This document shows, in pieces, positions 1,129-57,972 of a stretch of DNA of 64,000 bases (positions within the stretch are counted from its first letter, which is position 1; each line of letters opens with the position of its first letter). The DNA is taken from NCBI GenBank assembly GCA_024230435.1, contig JAAERL010000139.1, positions 6,339 to 70,338 on the forward strand, read 5' to 3'. Source of the DNA: Desulfobacteraceae bacterium (GTDB lineage Bacteria; Desulfobacterota; Desulfobacteria; Desulfobacterales; Desulfosarcinaceae). A model generated the notes under the pieces. That model did no database searches. It was not told the origin of the DNA and saw only the letters and a program-made list of their open reading frames with translations. A program made the translations under genes and the position numbers.

Positions 1129-1206
1129 AATATTACTCGCTACTGAGAAAGCATTGGATTAAGGGCCCCGGAAAAAATGTTTTATCCCAACTGACTTGTC
1201 TATCAA

Positions 1207-1275
1207 CTCGTCTTCTGCGTTGCGGGAAGCTGCGAATATCTCGATATGCACGGCTTCCCGCGCCTTGAATACGAG
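1207..1275 (-). repeat. divergent core hairpin of repeat family A
   Basis: CGTCTTCTGCGTT..GCGGGAAGC(1222-1230)..loop TGCGAATATCTCGATATGCAC..GCTTCCCGC(1253-1261)..GCGCCTTGAATACGA aligns with the inverted core of the full A copies. Flanks and loop are conserved, but the stem sequence is replaced. Confidence 0.5.
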
Positions 1276-1335
1276 CCCATATTCTGCGCCAATTGGGCAA
1301 AACAATTTTTCCGCGACCCTAATAATCATCATTGG

Positions 1336-2349: not shown

Positions 2350-2527
2350 TTAGGCGATTGGCGGAAAAGAATATACCATATTGGGCTTAGATTTTTTTTT
2401 CGTCTTCAAGGCCCGCCAAGTTTTGCTGATCAGTTTGCATACTTTACGTATTTGGGCTTTGGAATAACGCACAAGACGGGAAAAAAGACATACAAGATGG
2501 TATATTCTTTAACTGCAAATAGCCTTA
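2350..2527 (+). repeat. repeat family A, long copy A1 (MITE-like imperfect palindrome)
   Basis: TTAGGCGATTGGCGGAAAAGAATATACCA ... TGGTATATTCTTTAAC..AGCCTTAA termini, with internal paired arms TTTTTTCGTCTTC/ACAAGACGGGAAAAAA. Carries the 12-nt GTTTTGCTGATCA variant. Confidence 0.8.
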
Positions 2528-5211: not shown

Positions 5212-5250
5212 TTTTGCAGCCGATTTAATAATTCCCAAACAGGCTCTAAG
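5212..5250 (+). repeat. repeat family C right-end copy (solo or degenerate)
   Basis: TTTTGCAGCCGATTTAATAATTCCCAAACAGGCTCT (5212-5247) is identical over 36 nt to 57934-57969, just upstream of vgrG. Weaker similarity extends back to about 5165. Confidence 0.65.
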
Positions 5251-5415
5251 ATTATCCAGCAAGAATTTACGGTAATTTATAGCCGGGAGGAGTCACTATC
5301 CAATGACGAATTGGATATCATGGAGCAGTTAAAATTTCTGTTGCAAAAAAAACAATTATGCTGTTTTTTGGGCCTCGGGAGGCAAAGATGCCTAAGGCCC
5401 TTATAATCATATTTT

Positions 5416-9986: not shown

Positions 9987-10797
9987 GGGCAATGGATCAT
10001 TATTTCGTATTGTCTGATCGGGATATAATTCAAGTAAAAAGGGGCTGACGTTGTTTAAATCCAACACAGAAGTTGGGCAAATTAACAAAAACTTGATCAT
10101 TGAGTATGAGCTAATATTGCCCGTTTCGCATATCTTCATTTGAAAAGAGGCTTGGTGTAACATCATTGCGCAAGGTTAATGATGGTTTCTAAAATGCTCA
10201 GGCCGATGCAAGCGATTGAAAACATAATCAGCCAGTAAGTGTGTGTTGACATGTCATAGGCCTTACATTTAATGGCTGTAATGTGACTGCTCCCGGCAAT
10301 AAATTACCGGAAATTTTCGCCGGATAATCTTAAAACTAATGAAATGTGTTTCATTTTTATTTGAGCACTATAATACATCCAATAACAAAAATATTCGCCC
10401 CATACCTTATATTTTTTAAGCAATCAAACCTTTATTTATTTTGAGTTTTTCTGGAGCACATCGTTCATTTGTCAACGGTCACTATATTAGCGGCTGAGTC
10501 TTTTGGGCCAGGGCTGATTCACTTTCGGTCCTTGAGGCAAAGGTTGAACAGTGTTATTAGGTATTATTGGTTTTATTCATAACTACCGCTTTACGGGGGC
10601 TGGACATTGCAAATTAGCCGATTTTAATTGTTTTTAAGTCTGTTTTCAGCGGTTGTTGCAAAGTACGTGGATACAATGAACACTATATTTGTTGACGAGT
10701 ATTGAAACGAATTTAAATTTAGCGCAATCCAGGGGCATTTGTAACTTTTATGGCCTAAAATCAACAAGTGCCTGAATCTGAATTTGGATATTAGCTA

Positions 10798-17470: not shown

Positions 17471-17636
17471 TTAAGGCGATTGGCGGAAAAGAATATACCA
17501 GATTGAGCAGGATTTTTTTTCGTCTTTAAGGCATGCCAAAGTTTGCATACTTTACGTATTCGAACCTATGGCATAACACACTATACGGGAAAAAAGGCAT
17601 GTAAGAAAATATATTATTTAACACAAATCGCCTAAG
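17471..17636 (+). repeat. repeat family A, long copy A2
   Basis: TTAAGGCGATTGGCGGAAAAGAATATACCAGATTGAGCAGGATTTTTTTTCGTCTT...AAATCGCCTAAG. Intergenic, between galE and wecB. Confidence 0.85.
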
Positions 17637-21937: not shown

Positions 21938-22103
21938 TTTTAGTATGAACCCATCTTGTATGTCTTTTTTCCCGTCTTGTGCGTTATGCCAAAGATGCGA
22001 ATACGTTAAGTATGCAAACTGATCAGCAAAACTTTGGCGCGCCTTGAATACGAAAAAAAATCGAAGCTCAATCTGGTATATTCTTTTCCGTCAATCGCCT
22101 AAG
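21938..22103 (-). repeat. repeat family A, long copy A3 (inverted, one terminus degenerate)
   Basis: This is the reverse complement of the A consensus: ...CCCGTCTTGTGCGTTATGCCAAAGATGCGAATACGTTAAGTATGCAAACTGATCAGCAAAACTTTGGCGCGCCTTGAATACGAAAAAAAA...TGGTATATTCTTTTCCGTCAATCGCCTAAG. Confidence 0.8.
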
Positions 22104-26652: not shown

Positions 26653-28786
26653 GGTTCCTGCTCCTGCGCCGGACAAAAACCGGCTGTTAATCCATACCCG
26701 CAAGACATTGATTTCGGCAGGCACGGAAAAAATGCTTGTTGAGTTCGGACAAGCGTCCTTGATCGGCAAGGCAAAGGCCCAACCGGAGAAGGTCAGGCAA
26801 GTTCTGGACAAAATACGCAGTGACGGATTACTGCCGACCATCGAAATGGTGTTTAACCAGCTCGATGAACCTTTGCCTTTGGGGTATTGCAATGCCGGTA
26901 CCGTGCTTGAAGTCGGGGAGCAAGTTATTGGATTCAAACCGGGCGACCGGGTTGTTTCAAATGGCCCCCATGCCGAGCTGGTGAGCGTGCCGCCGCTGTT
27001 ATGTGAAAAAATACCTGAAAACGTCTCCGATGAACATGCCGCCTTTACGGTTTTGGCAAGTATAGGGTTGCAAGGAATTCGGCTGGCAAAACCAGGATTG
27101 GGCGAGACCATCGTTGTTTATGGGCTGGGATTGATCGGTCTGATCACAGTGCAGCTTTTAGCTGCAAACGGCTGTAATGTCATCGGCATTGATATCAATA
27201 AGGAACGTATGGCGCTGGCCGAGCAATTCGGGGTCAAAACCGTTGATGCCAAAGGCGGCGTTAATCTTGTCACTGCTGTTTATTCATTAACAAAGGGGCG
27301 CGGCGCCGATGCTGTTATAATTACCGCCTCGGCTAAAGGAAACGAAATTATTCACCAATCGGCTCAAATCAGCCGCAAGCGCGGACGGATCGTGTCGGTG
27401 GGAGTCGTGGGAATGAACTTGAACCGGGCTGATTTTTATGAAAAGGAGCTGAGGTTTCAAGTTTCCTGTTCTTACGGTCCCGGACGCTATGATGATGCTT
27501 ATGAACAAGAAGGCAATGACTACCCTATTGGCTTTGTGCGTTGGACCGAACAGCGTAATTTCGAAGCCGTGCTTGACATGTTGAGTACGCAACGTTTGAA
27601 GCTGGACAGTTTAATCACCCATCGCATACCGATTGGAAAAGCAGATCAAGCCTATAAAACCATACAGAAAAATTCCTCAGCGTTAGGGGTAATCCTCGAT
27701 TATCCGGCTGTTGCGGATCAGTCCAGAACGGTAACTGTCACGAGCAGCCCCTTGAAAACTCATGGCAAGGCCGTTGTCGGGATCATCGGTGCGGGCAATT
27801 TTGCAAAAATGACTTTGGTTCCGACCCTTTCCAAAACATCCGTCCGCATTGAATACATCGCCGCACGAAGCGGCAGTTCTGTTCAGCATTTGGCCGAAAA
27901 GTACAAGATCACCCAAGCTGTGACCGACTACAAAATAATGCTCGATGATCCTAAGCTGAGCGCGGTTATCATCGCAGTAGGGCATGATCTTCATGCCCGG
28001 CTTATTTGTGAAGCCCTGGCAGCGGGCAAGCATGTATTTGTAGAAAAACCCCTGGCCTTGAACACCAATGAAGTGATGGAGGTTTTAAAGGCCATGGACA
28101 ACGCCCCCAAAAATTATCTGATGGTTGGCTTCAACCGCAGGTTCAGTGCGCATATAATGAAAATGAAATCCTTGCTCAAAGGCCGCAGTGAGCCACTGGC
28201 AATGAACTACACTGTAAATGCGGGATATATCCCTAAGCATGTTTGGGTTCAGGATACTGTTCGCGCAGGAGGACGCATCATCGGTGAGGCCTGCCATTTT
28301 ATCGACCTGATGGTTTGGCTGACCGATTCTCTGGTGTGCTCGGTGGCGGCGCAAAAGATGGGAGGCTCCGTATCTGTTAAAGAGGATAAAATGGCCATCA
28401 GCCTTGGATTTGAGGATGGGTCGGTGGGAACGATTAATTACTTTGCCAACGGATCGAAGAATTATCCCAAGGAGCAACTGGAAGTTTTTTCCGATCAAAG
28501 AATTTTAAAGCTGGATAATTTTCGTAAGACTTCCGGATACGAATTTGATGGATTTAAAAACTTCAAAACAACCCGCCCGGACAAGGGGCACAGAGAACAA
28601 TTTGCCGCTTTTATAAAAATAATCGAAGAAGGCGGCAATTCGATTATTCCTATTGAGCAAATCGTAAATGTCTCTTTGGCCAGTTTTGCTGCTGAAGCAG
28701 CAGCCGATGATAAACGGACCATTGATTTGGAAAAACGCTATTCACGTGTAATAGAGCAGCTTTCGCGTTTGTATGAATCCTATTAA
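26603..28786 (+). CDS. bi-domain oxidoreductase (N-terminal Zn-type alcohol dehydrogenase/MDR plus C-terminal Gfo/Idh/MocA)
   Basis: The N-terminal half has the MDR pattern (GYCNAGTV, GDRVVSNGPHAE, VYGLGLIGL Rossmann). The C-terminal half has a Gfo/Idh/MocA Rossmann (VGIIGAGNFA) and EKPLALN. ATG 26603 is preferred over GTG 26594 because of the AGGTGGA RBS. Confidence 0.85.
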   Translation: MKQILQNLRSGKTTINEVPAPAPDKNRLLIHTRKTLISAGTEKMLVEFGQASLIGKAKAQPEKVRQVLDKIRSDGLLPTIEMVFNQLDEPLPLGYCNAGTVLEVGEQVIGFKPGDRVVSNGPHAELVSVPPLLCEKIPENVSDEHAAFTVLASIGLQGIRLAKPGLGETIVVYGLGLIGLITVQLLAANGCNVIGIDINKERMALAEQFGVKTVDAKGGVNLVTAVYSLTKGRGADAVIITASAKGNEIIHQSAQISRKRGRIVSVGVVGMNLNRADFYEKELRFQVSCSYGPGRYDDAYEQEGNDYPIGFVRWTEQRNFEAVLDMLSTQRLKLDSLITHRIPIGKADQAYKTIQKNSSALGVILDYPAVADQSRTVTVTSSPLKTHGKAVVGIIGAGNFAKMTLVPTLSKTSVRIEYIAARSGSSVQHLAEKYKITQAVTDYKIMLDDPKLSAVIIAVGHDLHARLICEALAAGKHVFVEKPLALNTNEVMEVLKAMDNAPKNYLMVGFNRRFSAHIMKMKSLLKGRSEPLAMNYTVNAGYIPKHVWVQDTVRAGGRIIGEACHFIDLMVWLTDSLVCSVAAQKMGGSVSVKEDKMAISLGFEDGSVGTINYFANGSKNYPKEQLEVFSDQRILKLDNFRKTSGYEFDGFKNFKTTRPDKGHREQFAAFIKIIEEGGNSIIPIEQIVNVSLASFAAEAAADDKRTIDLEKRYSRVIEQLSRLYESY

Positions 28787-33605: not shown

Positions 33606-34793
33606 ATGTCCGAAAAAAAACGGCTATTTCTTTCACCTCCCCATATGGGCGGTGAAGAACTCAACTATGTTAAGCAAGCCTTTGAAAGTAACTACATTGC
33701 GCCTTTGGGCCCCATGGTGGATGCTTTTGAAGAGGCGATAAAGGAAAAAACCGGATTTACCAATGCCGTAGCCCTTGCCAGTGGAACCGCGGGCTTGCAT
33801 CTGGCTTTGCGGAATTTGGGAGTTGGTCCGGCTGATGAAGTCTTTGCTTCAACCCTTACGTTCATTGGCAGCGTGTCACCAATTGTCTTTCAACGCGCAA
33901 GGCCGGTTTTTATCGACTCTGATCTGCAAACGTGGACCCTTGACCCTGAACTGCTGGCTCAGGAGTTGCATTGTTGTCAAAAGCGCGGACGGTTGCCAAA
34001 GGCTGTAATACCAACGGATTTGTATGGCCAGTGTGCTGATATTGATAAAATCCTGGCTATATGCGACAGCTACGGCGTTGCTGTCATATCAGACTCGGCG
34101 GAATCTCTGGGTGCGCTCTATCAGGGCAGACATGCAGGCCTGGGAGCCAAAGCCGCCGTGTTTTCATTTAACGGGAACAAGATTATCACAACTTCCGGCG
34201 GCGGAATGCTGGTATCCGATGAAGCCCGATTCATAGAAAAAGCAAGATTCTTATCCCAGCAGGCCAGGGATAATGCCCCGCACTACCAGCATTCGCAAAT
34301 CGGTTATAATTATCGTATGAGCAATATTGCGGCTGCGATCGGCCTGGGTCAGCTTGAATGCCTGGACCAGCGCATTGCCCGTAAACGGGAAATTTTCAGG
34401 TACTATAAAAGTGCGTTAGACGATTTGCCGGGTATTTCTTTCATGCCCGAAGCCCGCTATGGGCGCAGCAACTATTGGTTAACGGTAATGCTCGTTAATC
34501 CGGCTAAATTTGGCGCTGATACGCATACCATCCGTTTAGCTCTCGAAGAACATAATATCGAATCACGTCCTGTCTGGAAACCCATGCATCTTCAACCGGT
34601 TTTTTCAATCATTGAAGATGAGACTAAACACCATCATACTACTTTGGAAAAATGCCCTGCAAGGGCGGTTGGCGGACATGTAGCCGAGGCGCTCTTTAAA
34701 AACGGGCTATGCCTGCCGTCCGGTACGGCTTTGAGTGAAAGACAATTAGAAAGCATCGTCATGCGGATTCGCAGACTGCATGGCGTTAATTAA
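33606..34793 (+). CDS. DegT/DnrJ/EryC1/StrS family PLP-dependent sugar aminotransferase
   Basis: YVKQAFESNYIAPLGP, ALASGTAGLHLAL, FSFNGNKIITTSGGGML (PLP lysine) and YNYRMSNIAAAIGLGQL are present. 395 aa. Confidence 0.9.
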   Translation: MSEKKRLFLSPPHMGGEELNYVKQAFESNYIAPLGPMVDAFEEAIKEKTGFTNAVALASGTAGLHLALRNLGVGPADEVFASTLTFIGSVSPIVFQRARPVFIDSDLQTWTLDPELLAQELHCCQKRGRLPKAVIPTDLYGQCADIDKILAICDSYGVAVISDSAESLGALYQGRHAGLGAKAAVFSFNGNKIITTSGGGMLVSDEARFIEKARFLSQQARDNAPHYQHSQIGYNYRMSNIAAAIGLGQLECLDQRIARKREIFRYYKSALDDLPGISFMPEARYGRSNYWLTVMLVNPAKFGADTHTIRLALEEHNIESRPVWKPMHLQPVFSIIEDETKHHHTTLEKCPARAVGGHVAEALFKNGLCLPSGTALSERQLESIVMRIRRLHGVN

Positions 34794-34955
34794 GGCGATT
34801 GGCGGAAAAGAATATACCAGATTGAGCAGGATTTTTTTTCGTATTCAAGGCGTGCCAAAGTTTGCATACTTAACGTATTCGCATCTTTGGCATAACGCAG
34901 AAGACGGGAAAAAAGACATACAAGATGGTATATTCTTTAACAGAAATCGCCTAAG
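34790..34955 (+). repeat. repeat family A, long copy A4
   Basis: TTAAGGCGATTGGCGGAAAAGAATATACCAGATTGAGCAGG...GATGGTATATTCTTTAACAGAAATCGCCTAAG. Its first bases contain the aminotransferase TAA stop (34791-34793). Confidence 0.85.
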
Positions 34956-35013
34956 GCGATTGGCGGAAAAAAAGACATACAAGATGGTTATTATTTGCCG
35001 CAAACCGCCTAAG
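34951..35013 (+). repeat. repeat family A, short form (internally deleted), tandem to A4
   Basis: CTAAGGCGATTGGCGGAAAAAAAGACATACAAGATGGTTATTATTTGCCGCAAACCGCCTAAG shares the CTAAG junction with A4. It has the same deletion architecture as 55710-55771. Confidence 0.7.
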
Positions 35014-40962: not shown

Positions 40963-41129
40963 TAAGGAGATTGGCGGAAAAGAATATACCAGATTGGCCT
41001 CGATTTTTTTTCGTCTTCAAGGCGTGCCAAAGTTTGCATACTTTACGTATTCGCACCTTTGGCATAACTTAAGAAGACGGGAAAAAAGACATGCAAGATG
41101 GTATATTCTTTAACTGTAAATTGCTTTAG
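40963..41129 (+). repeat. repeat family A, long copy A5
   Basis: TAAGGAGATTGGCGGAAAAGAATATACCAGATTGGCCTCGATTTTTTTTCGTCTTCAAGGCGTGCCAAAGTTTGCATACTTTACGTATTCGCACCTTTGGCATAAC...GATGGTATATTCTTTAACTGTAAATTGCTTTAG. Confidence 0.85.
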
Positions 41130-49251: not shown

Positions 49252-49429
49252 CTAAGGCGATTGGCGGAAAAAGCATAGCATCTTAACAGATACCATATTG
49301 GGCTTAGATTTTTTTTCGTCTTCAAGCCATGCCAAAGTTTGCTGATCAGTTTGCATGTTTAAAGTATTCGCAGCATTGGCATAACACAAAAGACGGGAAA
49401 AAAGACATGCTTAACACAAATCGCCTAAG
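49252..49429 (+). repeat. repeat family A, long copy A6 (variant arms), abutting a family C terminus
   Basis: The sequence reads CCAAACAGGCTCTAAGGCGATTGGCGGAAAAAGC...ATACCATATTGGGCTTAGATTTTTTTTCGTCTTCAAGCCATGCCAAAGTTTGCTGATCAGTTTGCAT...AAATCGCCTAAG, where the first 11 nt (49241-49251, CCAAACAGGCT) are the abutting family C terminus. Confidence 0.8.
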
Positions 49430-57805: not shown

Positions 57806-57972
57806 TTAGAGCTTGTTTGGGAAATAGAAAATTTAGCGAAAAAGTGCGAGGGCGAGGTCAAAATGTCTCAAATTTGAAATGAATAGCCGGTCTATTTGTC
57901 GAAAATTTGCGTCATTTTGGACCGTTCCCGCGCTTTTGCAGCCGATTTAATAATTCCCAAACAGGCTCTTAA
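57806..57972 (+). repeat. repeat family C, full copy (about 167 bp, terminal inverted repeats)
   Basis: The left end TTAGAGCTTGTTTGGGAAAT is inverted relative to the right end AATTCCCAAACAGGCTCTTAA. The right 36 nt are identical to 5212-5247. The element ends 18 nt before the vgrG ATG. Confidence 0.65.

What the first reader, a model, noticed from the sequence alone, without database searches (positions are those of the whole stretch)
1207..1275. Compensatory stem replacement in a divergent family A core implies selection for the hairpin
The fragment at 1207-1275 aligns with the inverted core of family A. The flanks CGTCTT.TGCGTT and GCGCCTTGAATACGA and the loop TGCGAATA...ATGCA are conserved. 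The apical stem, however, is GCGGGAAGC/GCTTCCCGC in place of the GCCAAAG/CTTTGGC pair of the other copies. Both arms have changed together so that pairing is preserved. Covariation of this kind is what one expects from a structure under selection, either an RNA stem-loop or a DNA hairpin recognised by a protein such as a Y1 transposase.
Basis: seen in the sequence. Interest (0 to 1): 0.6.

Follow-up and report, generated by a model that had tools for sequence, protein, structure and literature searches.

The report
Covarying hairpin core of a MITE
The flagged stem is the centre of a complete 157-base mobile repeat (a MITE), and related copies in dozens of bacterial genomes keep the hairpin's pairing while changing its sequence, more stably on one strand, so a single-stranded fold has been preserved in the spreading element rather than for the host.

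Summary
Window 1207-1275 matches the family A core, with conserved flanks and loop and a fully replaced but still paired apical stem.

It is not a lone divergent fragment. It is the centre of an intact 157-nt element (1163-1319, flanked by TAA/TAA). I call its family S: about 34 copies, a sister of the roughly 500-copy family A. Both families have terminal inverted repeats and 3-bp TAA/TTA target duplications, so both are DDE-type MITEs.

A covariance model of the core finds relatives in 38 of 65 genomes of the same family and 54 of 151 of the order. A motif scan finds them in other phyla too. Across 47 elements, 48 of 55 pairs show compensatory changes. The internal loop CAAGGC/CAAC(G/A)C stays nearly unchanged.

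The fold is strand-specific:
- G·U outnumbers A·C about 3-6 to 1.
- The forward strand folds better in 47 of 47 elements, by a mean of 18.8 kcal/mol.

Copies within this genome decay neutrally and show no orientation bias. Selection therefore acts on the spreading element lineage, not on each copy.

A Y1 transposase is not supported. The mobilising transposase, and whether the fold matters as RNA or as ssDNA, remain unknown.

An earlier report of this scan (e1-3007476) already described this MITE family on this window.

The parts
1160..1162 (.). Target-site duplication TAA, left copy
   Evidence: It repeats at 1320-1322. Genome-wide, the two flanking trinucleotides are identical in 15 of 18 full S copies and 188 of 238 full A copies: TAA/TAA 94, TTA/TTA 93, mixed TAA/TTA only 21.
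1163..1319 (-). Complete 157-nt MITE of family S (GGGCCCCGG...CCGCGACCC). The conserved forward orientation is on the window's minus strand.
   Evidence: About 34 nhmmer hits in the genome, 18 of them full length. The minus strand folds as RNA at -82.3 kcal/mol (z -9.6); the plus strand folds at -56.8 (z -4.75).
1163..1190 (.). Terminal inverted repeat, window-left end (GGGCCCCGGAAAAAATGTTTTATCCCAA)
   Evidence: It pairs with 1292-1319 in the predicted fold. It is conserved among S copies.
1292..1319 (.). Terminal inverted repeat, window-right end (TTGGGCAAAACAATTTTTCCGCGACCC)
   Evidence: Same as for the left terminal repeat.
1209..1273 (-). Central core hairpin, which is the finding itself. 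It matches covariance model R1.
   Evidence: 79.2 bits, E 3e-20, with all 66 model positions matched.
1209..1215 (.). Basal stem of the core (CGTCTTC). It pairs with 1267-1273 (GAATACG) with one mismatch.
   Evidence: In relatives this stem covaries: CGTTTTC/GAAAACG, CGGCTGC/GCAGCCG, CGTCACC/GGTGACG and others. 6 of its 7 pairs carry double changes.
1216..1221 (.). One side of the conserved internal loop (TGCGTT; AACGCA on the forward strand)
   Evidence: CAAC(G/A)C is nearly invariant across about 60 genomes, while both neighbouring stems vary.
1222..1230 (.). Apical stem arm GCGGGAAGC
   Evidence: It forms a perfect 9-bp pairing with 1253-1261. All 9 pairs of this helix covary across genomes.
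1231..1250 (.). Apical mini-hairpin TGC-GA-ATAT-CTCG-ATAT-GCA
   Evidence: The mini-stem is ATAT/ATAT here and ATAC/GTAT in family A, a compensated change. In the 43-sequence alignment (A3), all 4 pairs of this helix carry double changes.
1253..1261 (.). Apical stem arm GCTTCCCGC
   Evidence: Partner of 1222-1230.
1262..1266 (.). Other side of the conserved internal loop (GCCTT; AAGGC on the forward strand)
   Evidence: CAAGGC is almost invariant in alignments A4 and A5.
1267..1273 (.). Basal stem of the core, 3' arm (GAATACG)
   Evidence: Partner of 1209-1215.
1320..1322 (.). Target-site duplication TAA, right copy
2353..2524 (+). Family A MITE copy, flanked by TTA at 2350-2352 and 2525-2527. 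It is a long-loop variant.
   Evidence: The core at 2401-2478 matches R1 at 45.4 bits.
17521..17587 (+). Core of a family A copy
   Evidence: R1 55.0 bits.
21973..22052 (-).
   Evidence: R1 59.4 bits; sequence.
34840..34906 (+). Core of a family A copy
   Evidence: R1 78.6 bits.
41012..41079 (+). Core of a family A copy
   Evidence: R1 61.6 bits on the plus strand against 23.5 on the minus strand.
49317..49395 (+). Core of a family A copy (long-loop variant)
   Evidence: R1 49.1 bits.

Best explanation
The flagged stem is helix 3 of the central hairpin of a non-autonomous cut-and-paste transposon (a MITE). The whole 157-nt element is one long interrupted hairpin: terminal inverted repeats, two stems, a conserved asymmetric internal loop, the flagged 9-bp stem and a small apical hairpin.

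Shown here:
- The element has inverted termini and a 3-bp TAA/TTA target duplication.
- It belongs to a superfamily concentrated in one order (Desulfobacterales, judging by the record titles of relatives) and found sporadically in other phyla.
- Across that superfamily the stems keep pairing through compensatory changes, while the internal loops keep their sequence.
- The fold is better on one strand, because G·U/G·T is tolerated and A·C is not.
- Resident copies in this genome decay neutrally and lie in either orientation.

Inferred:
- The constraint acts on the element's own ability to keep spreading, not on a service to the host.
- The most likely role is a single-stranded fold of the forward strand that brings the two termini together, with the conserved loops serving as protein contacts.
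- The element would be moved by a transposase supplied in trans. The 3-bp duplication suggests an IS5 / PIF-Harbinger-like DDE enzyme.

Whether the folded molecule is ssDNA (my slight preference, since the element has no promoter of its own and no orientation bias) or RNA is not settled.
For: MITE anatomy:
- The element is 157 nt with inverted termini, in about 34 S copies and about 497 A copies.
- Flanking trinucleotides are identical in 188 of 238 A copies and 15 of 18 S copies, almost always TAA or TTA.
- IS5 and PIF/Harbinger elements make 3-bp duplications (PMC4122938).

Distribution of the core:
- 38 of 65 genomes of the same family and 54 of 151 of the order.
- 3 of 151 genomes in an even sample of the phylum, counting G000 itself and one same-order genome.
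- Named hits in Gamma- and Betaproteobacteria, Nitrospinota, Ignavibacteria and Atribacteria MAGs.

Covariation:
- Core alignment A3: 87.6% paired against 72.3% shuffled, score 0.436 against 0.146.
- Full-length MAFFT alignment A5: 91.7% against 71.3%, score 0.567 against 0.191, 48 of 55 pairs with double changes, 0 of 500 shuffles.

Strand specificity:
- In a sample chosen only by unpaired motifs, 52 G·T cells against 9 A·C. Collapsed to 16 families, that is 28 events against 8, p 0.0012.
- In the arms, which the model never saw, 87 against 28. In a conserved tandem U·G, 62 against 1. 35 pairs have more G·T than A·C, against 7 the other way.
- The forward strand is more stable in 47 of 47 elements, by a mean of 18.8 kcal/mol.
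- In the unbiased sample it is more stable in 88 of 98 with RNA parameters and 91 of 98 with DNA parameters.

Neutral decay of resident copies:
- In family A, 50 G·T against 58 A·C private changes, and 2 compensated cells.
- Orientation relative to co-directional flanking genes is 52 same against 43 opposite.
- Orientation relative to the GC-skew strand is 133 against 145.
Against: - No autonomous element with matching termini was found in this assembly or in three complete relatives. The transposase assignment therefore rests on the duplication length alone.
- No DDE transposon is known to need a folded single strand.
- Family A is the most prolific family here, yet it has the weakest fold and little strand asymmetry: a mean difference of -4 kcal/mol, with the forward strand better in 183 of 243 copies. 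A strong strand-specific fold is therefore not required for a burst.
- The sequences are related, so the shuffle counts are not probabilities.
Confidence: 0.6

Rival explanations
1. The element carries a functional structured RNA. The forward strand is transcribed, either from neighbouring genes or from an unrecognised promoter. The hairpin with its conserved loops then acts as RNA, for example as a protein-binding or RNase III-processed module, or as a regulator of the parent transposon.
For: - The variation is typical of RNA. U·G, U-A and C-G interchange at a conserved tandem wobble with almost no C·A.
- Internal loops stay invariant between covarying helices.
- There is a large RNA-energy gap between the strands.
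- MITE-like repeats with compensatory changes at the RNA level are known, such as bcr1 of Bacillus (PMC3184786).
- The window copy lies in the same direction as both flanking genes, 14 nt after a stop codon, so a read-through transcript would contain the stable fold.
Against: - By eye I found no promoter-like hexamer pair in the consensus. The promoter scan tool was not run.
- Copies lie in either orientation relative to genes, 52 against 43.
- Resident copies accumulate G·T and A·C equally and are not compensated. This argues against a host-level RNA function for each copy.
- There is no Rfam match, even at E up to 1.
- The strand asymmetry also holds with DNA energy parameters.
Confidence: 0.2
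2. Folding is not selected at all. The two arms change together for other reasons: both ends must bind the same co-evolving transposase, replication template switching or arm-to-arm conversion in palindromes copies one arm onto the other, and different families were born as separate palindromes.
For: - Template switching can produce multi-base compensatory changes in a single event (PMC8794818).
- Within family S the two stem alleles (GGG/CCC and GCA/TGC) differ at two adjacent pairs, and mixed, mismatched copies are common: at least 8, against 10 perfect ones.
- Hybrid S/A elements show that copies recombine.
- Terminal repeats are expected to co-vary with their transposase.
Against: - These processes are strand-symmetric, so they should give equal G·T and A·C. 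The observed ratio is 3-6 to 1, and the same strand is more stable in 47 of 47 elements.
- Arm-copying would erase asymmetric loops. Yet CAAGGC/CAAC(G/A)C and ATTGCGCCGGA/GACAAGCAAGAT persist across the order and in other phyla.
- Pairing is kept along the whole 157 nt, far from the termini, with 16 or more different stem sequences.
Confidence: 0.15
3. The hairpin is a REP-like or IS200/IS605-type single-strand DNA site recognised by a Y1 (HUH) transposase.
For: - The genome has 38 matches to the Y1 transposase family.
- Seven of them lie within 130 nt of an A or S element, where I estimate about 1.4 would by chance from element density (my arithmetic, not a formal test).
- One intact Y1 gene (G000:C351:17950-18366) is bracketed by two inverted A copies.
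- The fold is strand-specific, as for IS200/IS605 ends.
Against: - The elements have terminal inverted repeats and 3-bp target duplications. Y1 transposition makes neither.
- The left ends of this genome's IS200/IS605 elements carry different hairpins, such as CCCGGTAATTTATTGCCGGG and CCGATTCAATTCGG, unlike the MITE core.
- At C1065 the reading frame of the Y1 gene runs straight into an A element, and at C628 and C1131 the Y1 match is cut off where an A element begins.
- There is no GTAG/CTAC REP signature.
Confidence: 0.04

Closest known systems
ERIC / IRU elements of Enterobacteriaceae (about 127-bp MITE-like imperfect palindromes)
   Same: Both are short, non-coding, whole-length imperfect palindromes. 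Both are high-copy, intergenic, often sit at the 3' ends of genes, and are co-transcribed into stable stem-loops. Both are conserved across genera (PMC3184786, PMC10969869).
   Different: ERIC is flanked by TA (PMC3184786), whereas this element is flanked by a 3-bp TAA/TTA duplication. The sequence and host range differ. The strand-specific G·U signature and invariant internal loops shown here have not, to my knowledge, been reported for ERIC.
bcr1 repeats of the Bacillus cereus group (about 155 bp)
   Same: The size is similar. bcr1 is a mobile repeat with direct repeats. It is reported to be transcribed and to keep its RNA fold through compensatory base-pair changes (PMC3184786).
   Different: bcr1 has 5-bp direct repeats and a cruciform-like fold with two independent stem-loops, and it is restricted to one group of species. 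The element here is a single long hairpin with a 3-bp TWA duplication, found across an order and in other phyla. Its transcription was not tested.
MITEs of the IS5 / PIF-Harbinger superfamily (Tourist-like in eukaryotes; IS1031/IS427/ISL2-type in bacteria)
   Same: Both have a 3-bp target duplication (PMC4122938). From my own knowledge, the TWA target and termini beginning GG are also typical. Both insert in AT-rich intergenic sites.
   Different: No IS5-type element with matching termini was found, so membership rests on the duplication alone. A conserved, covarying central hairpin is not a described feature of that group.
Correia (NEMIS) elements of Neisseria
   Same: Both are 100-160-bp MITEs with long inverted repeats and a functional central module. 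Correia has an IHF site, and its transcripts fold and are cut by RNase III (PMC10969869).
   Different: Correia duplicates TA. Its centre is a dsDNA IHF site, and it carries promoters. The stem here only partly resembles the IHF consensus, in some families, and I saw no promoter.
Folded single-strand recombination sites: integron attC, IS200/IS605 ends (an analogy of mechanism only; from my own knowledge)
   Same: In both, the structure is conserved while the stem sequence varies. Both have conserved unpaired bases, and one strand folds better than the other.
   Different: Those systems make no target duplication and use tyrosine or HUH enzymes. attC has RYYYAAC...GTTRRRY at its ends and sits in cassette arrays. 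None of this applies here.

Membership tests
MITE (non-autonomous DDE-type transposon) | Terminal inverted repeats | tested here: met
   GGGCCCCGGAAAAAATGTTTTATCCCAA at 1163-1190 pairs with 1292-1319. The termini are conserved among S copies and present in relatives in other genomes.
MITE (non-autonomous DDE-type transposon) | Target-site duplication of fixed length | tested here: met
   The window copy has TAA on both sides. Flanking trinucleotides are identical in 188 of 238 A copies and 15 of 18 S copies. TAA/TAA 94 and TTA/TTA 93, against 21 mixed TAA/TTA pairs.
MITE (non-autonomous DDE-type transposon) | Small, non-coding, dispersed in many copies | tested here: met
   The element is 157 nt, and only spurious 47-57-aa frames overlap it. 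The genome holds 531 non-overlapping A and S hits, 77.8 kb or 1.3% of the assembly.
MITE (non-autonomous DDE-type transposon) | An autonomous insertion sequence with the same termini | tested here: inconclusive
   None was found in G000, G051, G065 or G073, or in about 1.1 Mb of fetched loci. The assemblies are fragmented, and the partner may live in other genomes.
IS5 / PIF-Harbinger-derived MITE | 3-bp duplication, typically TWA | tested here: met
   The 3-bp duplication of IS5 and PIF/Harbinger elements is stated in PMC4122938.
IS5 / PIF-Harbinger-derived MITE | Termini shared with an IS5-family transposase gene | tested here: inconclusive
   The DDE_Tnp_1 loci of G000 lack the termini. DDE_Tnp_4 is absent from G000 and G051. 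The six insertion-sequence regions of G051 that I examined have unrelated termini.
REP / REPIN with RAYT (Y1 transposase) | Short (20-40 nt) palindrome with a GTAG/CTAC end, no target duplication, and a RAYT gene flanked by the repeats | tested here: not met
   The element is 157 nt with inverted termini and a 3-bp duplication, and it has no GTAG signature. The Y1 genes of G000 have other end hairpins, and some are interrupted by A elements.
IS200/IS605-derived palindrome-associated elements | Sub-terminal hairpins like those of a resident IS200/IS605; no inverted termini; no duplication | tested here: not met
   The left-end hairpins of resident IS200/IS605 copies differ from the MITE core. 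Duplications are present.
Any Rfam RNA family | Match to a curated covariance model | tested here: not met
   The window has no hit at gathering thresholds. Six loci carrying elements have no relevant hit at E up to 1.
ERIC / IRU | 127-bp consensus, TA flanks, enterobacterial hosts | tested here: not met
   The flanks here are TAA/TTA, not TA (ERIC's TA is given in PMC3184786). The length is 157 nt. Direct alignment to the ERIC consensus was not done.
Integron attC site | RYYYAAC at the 5' end and GTTRRRY at the 3' end, in a cassette array beside an integrase | tested here: not met
   By inspection of the sequence, the TTAGGC-like and GCCTAA-like ends are in the opposite order, vary as TAA or TTA with the duplication, and the copies are dispersed.

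The most novel reading that the evidence does not exclude
This cross-phylum MITE superfamily depends on a strand-specific folded single strand. There are two possible forms. In one, a DDE-type miniature transposon is excised or captured as a folded ssDNA hairpin, with the covarying stems bringing its ends together and the invariant CAAGGC/CAAC(G/A)C loop serving as the protein contact. In the other, the MITE is a vehicle for a roughly 66-nt structured RNA module, not present in Rfam, that spreads between phyla. Either would be a new link between cut-and-paste MITEs and single-strand structure.
Probability: 0.3. Interest if true: 0.8.

Novelty: new member of a known kind. Interest (0 to 1): 0.5.

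Why it matters
MITEs are often noted to fold into hairpins, but this is usually treated as a by-product of their inverted repeats. This case gives unusually clean comparative evidence that the fold itself is preserved. Helices covary around near-invariant loops, G·U is tolerated where A·C is not, and one strand is always the more stable, across dozens of genera and several phyla. Individual insertions, by contrast, decay neutrally.

That pattern separates selection on the element from selection for the host. It also makes a concrete question testable: does a cut-and-paste MITE need a single-stranded fold, as DNA or as RNA, in order to move?

On the practical side:
- The element is not in Rfam.
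- It fragments assemblies, lying within 200 nt of 141 contig ends in this genome.
- A covariance model of its core is a sensitive marker for it.

Tried and rejected
Searches that found nothing:
- Rfam at gathering and permissive thresholds.
- Plain BLAST of A and S elements in 40 relatives gave almost nothing. The covariance model was needed.
- An autonomous partner, sought four ways: termini outside MITEs in G000; DDE_Tnp_1 and DDE_Tnp_4 loci in G000 and G051; solitary termini in three complete relatives; split cores and extra termini in all fetched loci. None was found.
- Plasmid collection by blastn.
- Viral contigs by pattern.
- Empty-site comparison with the same-genus genome G001. Only 83 nt aligned, so it was uninformative.
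- Orientation bias relative to genes and to the GC-skew strand in G000. None was found.

Ideas considered by inspection and dropped:
- Intrinsic terminator. The hairpin is preceded by a T-run and followed by an A-run in both orientations, and these pair with each other.
- Sigma-54 promoter. Family A has TGGCAC but no -12 TTGC, and the motif is absent from S.
- Sigma-70 promoter in the arms.
- IHF site. Some stems contain ATCAA, but the full consensus is absent and the stem is not conserved.
- dif/Xer site. GCATA..TATG is too short a resemblance.
- K-turn.
- Integron attC.

Statistics set aside:
- The first G·U against A·C count, on the best model hit per genome (64 against 18), was set aside because it is biased by the model's scoring. 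It was replaced by samples that do not depend on the stems.
- The strand counts of model hits in complete genomes were not used, because only a capped subset of candidates is scored.

Full report
**What is at the site.**
- Aligned with six family A copies of the window, the flanks CGTCTT.TGCGTT and GCGCCTTGAATACGA and the loop TGCGAATA...ATGCA line up. The arms GCGGGAAGC (1222-1230) and GCTTCCCGC (1253-1261) replace GCCAAAG and CTTTGGC.
- The small inner stem also changes with compensation: ATAC/GTAT in A, ATAT/ATAT here.
- BLAST similarity to A is borderline (E 0.009). A covariance model of the core scores the site at 79.2 bits, E 3e-20, on the minus strand; this site's core was among the model's training sequences, so that score is not independent evidence.

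**It is not a fragment.**
- BLAST of 1196-1290 against the whole assembly found 26 matches at E 1e-8 or better, 82-100% identical. The assembly is 6.13 Mb in 1239 contigs, and the window is G000:C139:6339-70338.
- Extending these copies shows a complete element of 157 nt, GGGCCCCGG...CCGCGACCC, at window 1163-1319. Its ends are inverted repeats of each other.
- nhmmer finds 531 non-overlapping elements: 497 A and 34 S, of which 243 and 18 are full length. Together they make up 77.8 kb, and they lie within 200 nt of 141 contig ends.
- A third, small family is also present, with CGTTTTC..GCGTCAATGG..CATTGACGC..GAAAACG.
- Hybrids with an S left half and an A right half exist.

**How it moves.**
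- The three bases on either side of full-length copies are identical in 188 of 238 A copies and 15 of 18 S copies. TAA/TAA occurs 94 times, TTA/TTA 93 times, and mixed TAA/TTA pairs only 21 times.
- If the flanks were independent, half would be mixed. This is therefore a true 3-bp duplication of a TWA target, used in both orientations. The window copy has TAA at 1160-1162 and 1320-1322.
- Inverted termini plus a fixed-length duplication define a DDE-type MITE. A 3-bp duplication is the mark of IS5 and PIF/Harbinger elements (PMC4122938).
- I could not find the autonomous partner. I checked G000, three complete relatives, and about 1.1 Mb of fetched loci. It was also absent from plasmids and viral contigs.

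**The covariation test.**
- I wrote the core in a fixed 'forward' orientation: 5' CGTMTTC-AAG-GC-[9-bp stem]-..TGC-ATAC-loop-GTAT..-[stem']-AAC-GC-A-GAAGACG 3'. The window copy is on the minus strand in this orientation.
- From 30 sequences I built covariance model R1.
- R1 finds the core in 38 of 65 genomes of the same family, several with dozens of copies. It finds it in 54 of 151 genomes and 42 of 110 genera of the order. In an even sample of the phylum it finds it in only 3 of 151, counting G000 itself and one same-order genome.
- An exact-motif scan of one genome per species returned at least 118 stretches. Besides Desulfobacterales (for example Desulfosarcina variabilis), the hits include Sedimenticola and other gamma- and betaproteobacterial MAGs, Nitrospinota, Ignavibacteria, Atribacteria, Syntrophaceae and Desulfobulbaceae.
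- Some of these are complete MITEs of the same build, and a few are chance matches in coding sequence.
- One copy per genome gives these figures:

| Alignment | Cells paired | Shuffled | Covariation score | Shuffled score |
|---|---|---|---|---|
| Core, 43 sequences | 87.6% | 72.3% | 0.436 | 0.146 |
| Full length, 47 elements, MAFFT | 91.7% | 71.3% | 0.567 | 0.191 |

- In the core, the flagged helix has double changes at all 9 pairs, the basal helix at 6 of 7, and the apical one at 4 of 4.
- Over the full length, RNAalifold predicts one long hairpin of 55 pairs, 48 with double changes. No shuffle of 500 reaches any measure, and slid partners score 0.134 at most.
- Between the covarying helices the unpaired stretches CAAGGC and CAAC(G/A)C hardly vary. 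A second asymmetric loop (ATTGCGCCGGA opposite GACAAGCAAGAT) is also conserved.
- The sequences are related, so the shuffle counts are not probabilities. The number of distinct stem sequences is still large, at 16 families or more in one sample.

**One strand is preferred.**
- A palindrome kept only as duplex DNA should show G·T and A·C mismatches equally, since each is the other read on the opposite strand.
- My first count used the best model hit per genome (64 against 18). It is biased by the model's scoring, so I repeated it three ways:
  1. On elements chosen only by unpaired motifs: 52 against 9 cells. Collapsed to 16 families and distinct events, 28 against 8, p 0.0012.
  2. In the arms, which the model never saw: 87 against 28. 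35 pairs have more G·T than A·C, against 7 the other way.
  3. At a conserved tandem wobble next to the core: U·G 62, Watson-Crick 28, A·C 1.
- Folding energies agree:

| Sample | Forward strand more stable | Mean difference |
|---|---|---|
| 47 elements, RNA parameters | 47 of 47 | 18.8 kcal/mol |
| S copies in G000 | 18 of 18 | 25.7 kcal/mol |
| Motif-defined sample, RNA parameters | 88 of 98 | 11.2 kcal/mol |
| Motif-defined sample, DNA parameters | 91 of 98 | 4.5 kcal/mol |

- The window element folds at -82.3 kcal/mol (z -9.6) on the minus strand, against -56.8 (z -4.75) on the plus strand.
- Family A is the exception, with a mean difference of only 4 kcal/mol.

**Who is selected.**
- Within this genome, family A copies behave as neutral relics. 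At stem positions, private changes give 50 G·T against 58 A·C, with 2 compensated cells. This sets aside one subfamily-defining polymorphism carried by 146 copies.
- Elements lie in the same or the opposite direction to co-directional neighbours 52 against 43 times.
- They favour gaps between convergent genes (64) and co-directional genes (95) over divergent ones (14).
- They show no bias relative to the GC-skew strand, 133 against 145.
- Within family S, the flagged stem has two perfect alleles: GGG/CCC in 4 copies, including the window's, and GCA/TGC in 6. At least 8 copies are mismatched. The alleles are spread over two sub-lineages.
- The constraint is therefore visible between families and genomes, not among resident copies. 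It acts on lineages that go on spreading, not on a service to the host.

**Rival readings.**
- *A functional RNA.* This fits the RNA-like pattern of variation. It is weakened by the lack of orientation bias, the neutral decay of copies, the absence (by eye) of a promoter, and the fact that DNA parameters show the same asymmetry.
- *By-products without selection on folding* (co-evolving termini, template switching as in PMC8794818, separate palindromic births). These are strand-symmetric and would erase asymmetric loops, so they cannot explain the G·T excess or the conserved loops. Template switching may still be the source of multi-base replacements.
- *The Y1 idea.* I tested it directly.
  - G000 has 38 Y1_Tnp matches, seven of them within 130 nt of an element.
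  - One intact Y1 gene is bracketed by two inverted A copies.
  - The IS200/IS605 ends in this genome carry unrelated hairpins, however. At C1065 the reading frame of the Y1 gene runs straight into an A element, and at C628 and C1131 the Y1 match is cut off where an A element begins.
  - Y1 transposition makes no target duplication.
  - The proximity looks like nested insertion among mobile-element remnants.

**Comparison with known elements and limits.**
- The element is a MITE by every feature that could be tested, except for the missing partner.
- It resembles ERIC (whole-length palindrome, 3' gene ends) and bcr1 (compensatory changes). It differs from both in its duplication, hosts and fold (PMC3184786, PMC10969869). 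It is absent from Rfam.
- An earlier report of this scan (e1-3007476) had already called family A a cross-phylum hairpin MITE inserting at TAA/TTA, and my results agree.
- This report adds four things: the flagged site is an intact sister family, the formal covariation result, the invariant loops, and the strand asymmetry.
- Two questions stay open. Is the folded molecule RNA or ssDNA? Which transposase moves the element?

Noticed in passing
G000:C525:2467-2821; G000:C967:4619-4973; G000:C287:37129-37483: These are chimeric elements. The left half is family S, up to or into the shared core. The rest is family A sequence or other DNA. This suggests recombination between families within the conserved core.
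   Followed up: partly
G000:C60, C402, C405, C538, C587, C739, C751 (for example C402, core at reverse-complement positions 27796-27861 as listed): A third small family, about 7-8 copies, shares the same core plan but has different stems: CGTTTTC/GAAAACG and GCGTCAATGG/CCATTGACGC. One copy in C1045 has CGTCTGC/GCAGACG.
   Followed up: partly
That family may be an old, decayed relative of the same superfamily.
   Followed up: no
window 2418-2430, 22020-22032, 49334-49346, and about 100 genomic copies: Many family A copies carry a 12-13-nt insertion (TGCTGATCAGTT, containing the palindrome TGATCA) between stem 3 and the apical mini-hairpin. The top of the hairpin therefore tolerates insertions.
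   Followed up: no
window 34949-35012: A partial second A terminus starts directly at the TAA duplication of the copy at 34790-34948. This is either a tandem or a nested insertion.
   Followed up: no
window 5212-5296, 10283-10332, 57934-57969: The repeats TTTTGCAGCCGATTTAATAATTCCCAAACAGGCTCT and TAAGATTATCCAGC..CCGG resemble the left end of an IS200/IS605 family seen at G000:C1065, C274, C697 and C1229 (TTTAAGATTATCCAGTGAGAATTCCCGGTAATTTATTGCCGGG). They may be solo ends or miniature derivatives of that Y1 transposon.
   Followed up: partly
G000 genome-wide: There are 38 Y1_Tnp matches. About 14 of them are short C-terminal pieces (profile positions about 83-121), suggesting a repeated deletion derivative of an IS200/IS605 element. 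Seven matches lie within 130 nt of an A or S MITE.
   Followed up: partly
G051:C1 (complete 7.6-Mb relative): The left terminus of the local MITE family points to the plus strand 16 times and to the minus strand 37 times among the listed matches with 2 mismatches, with no obvious switch along the chromosome. This is unexplained. G000 shows no such bias relative to GC skew.
   Followed up: partly
L170:6510-6561 (MAG: Acutalibacteraceae bacterium, JAZPYF010000078.1): A core-like motif occurs inside a tandemly repeated unit of roughly 100 nt in a Firmicutes MAG, without the usual arms. It could be a chance match or a distant, rearranged relative.
   Followed up: no
G000 assembly: A or S elements lie within 200 nt of 141 of 2478 contig ends. 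The MITEs are therefore one cause of the assembly's fragmentation (1239 contigs).
   Followed up: yes
   Followed up: no
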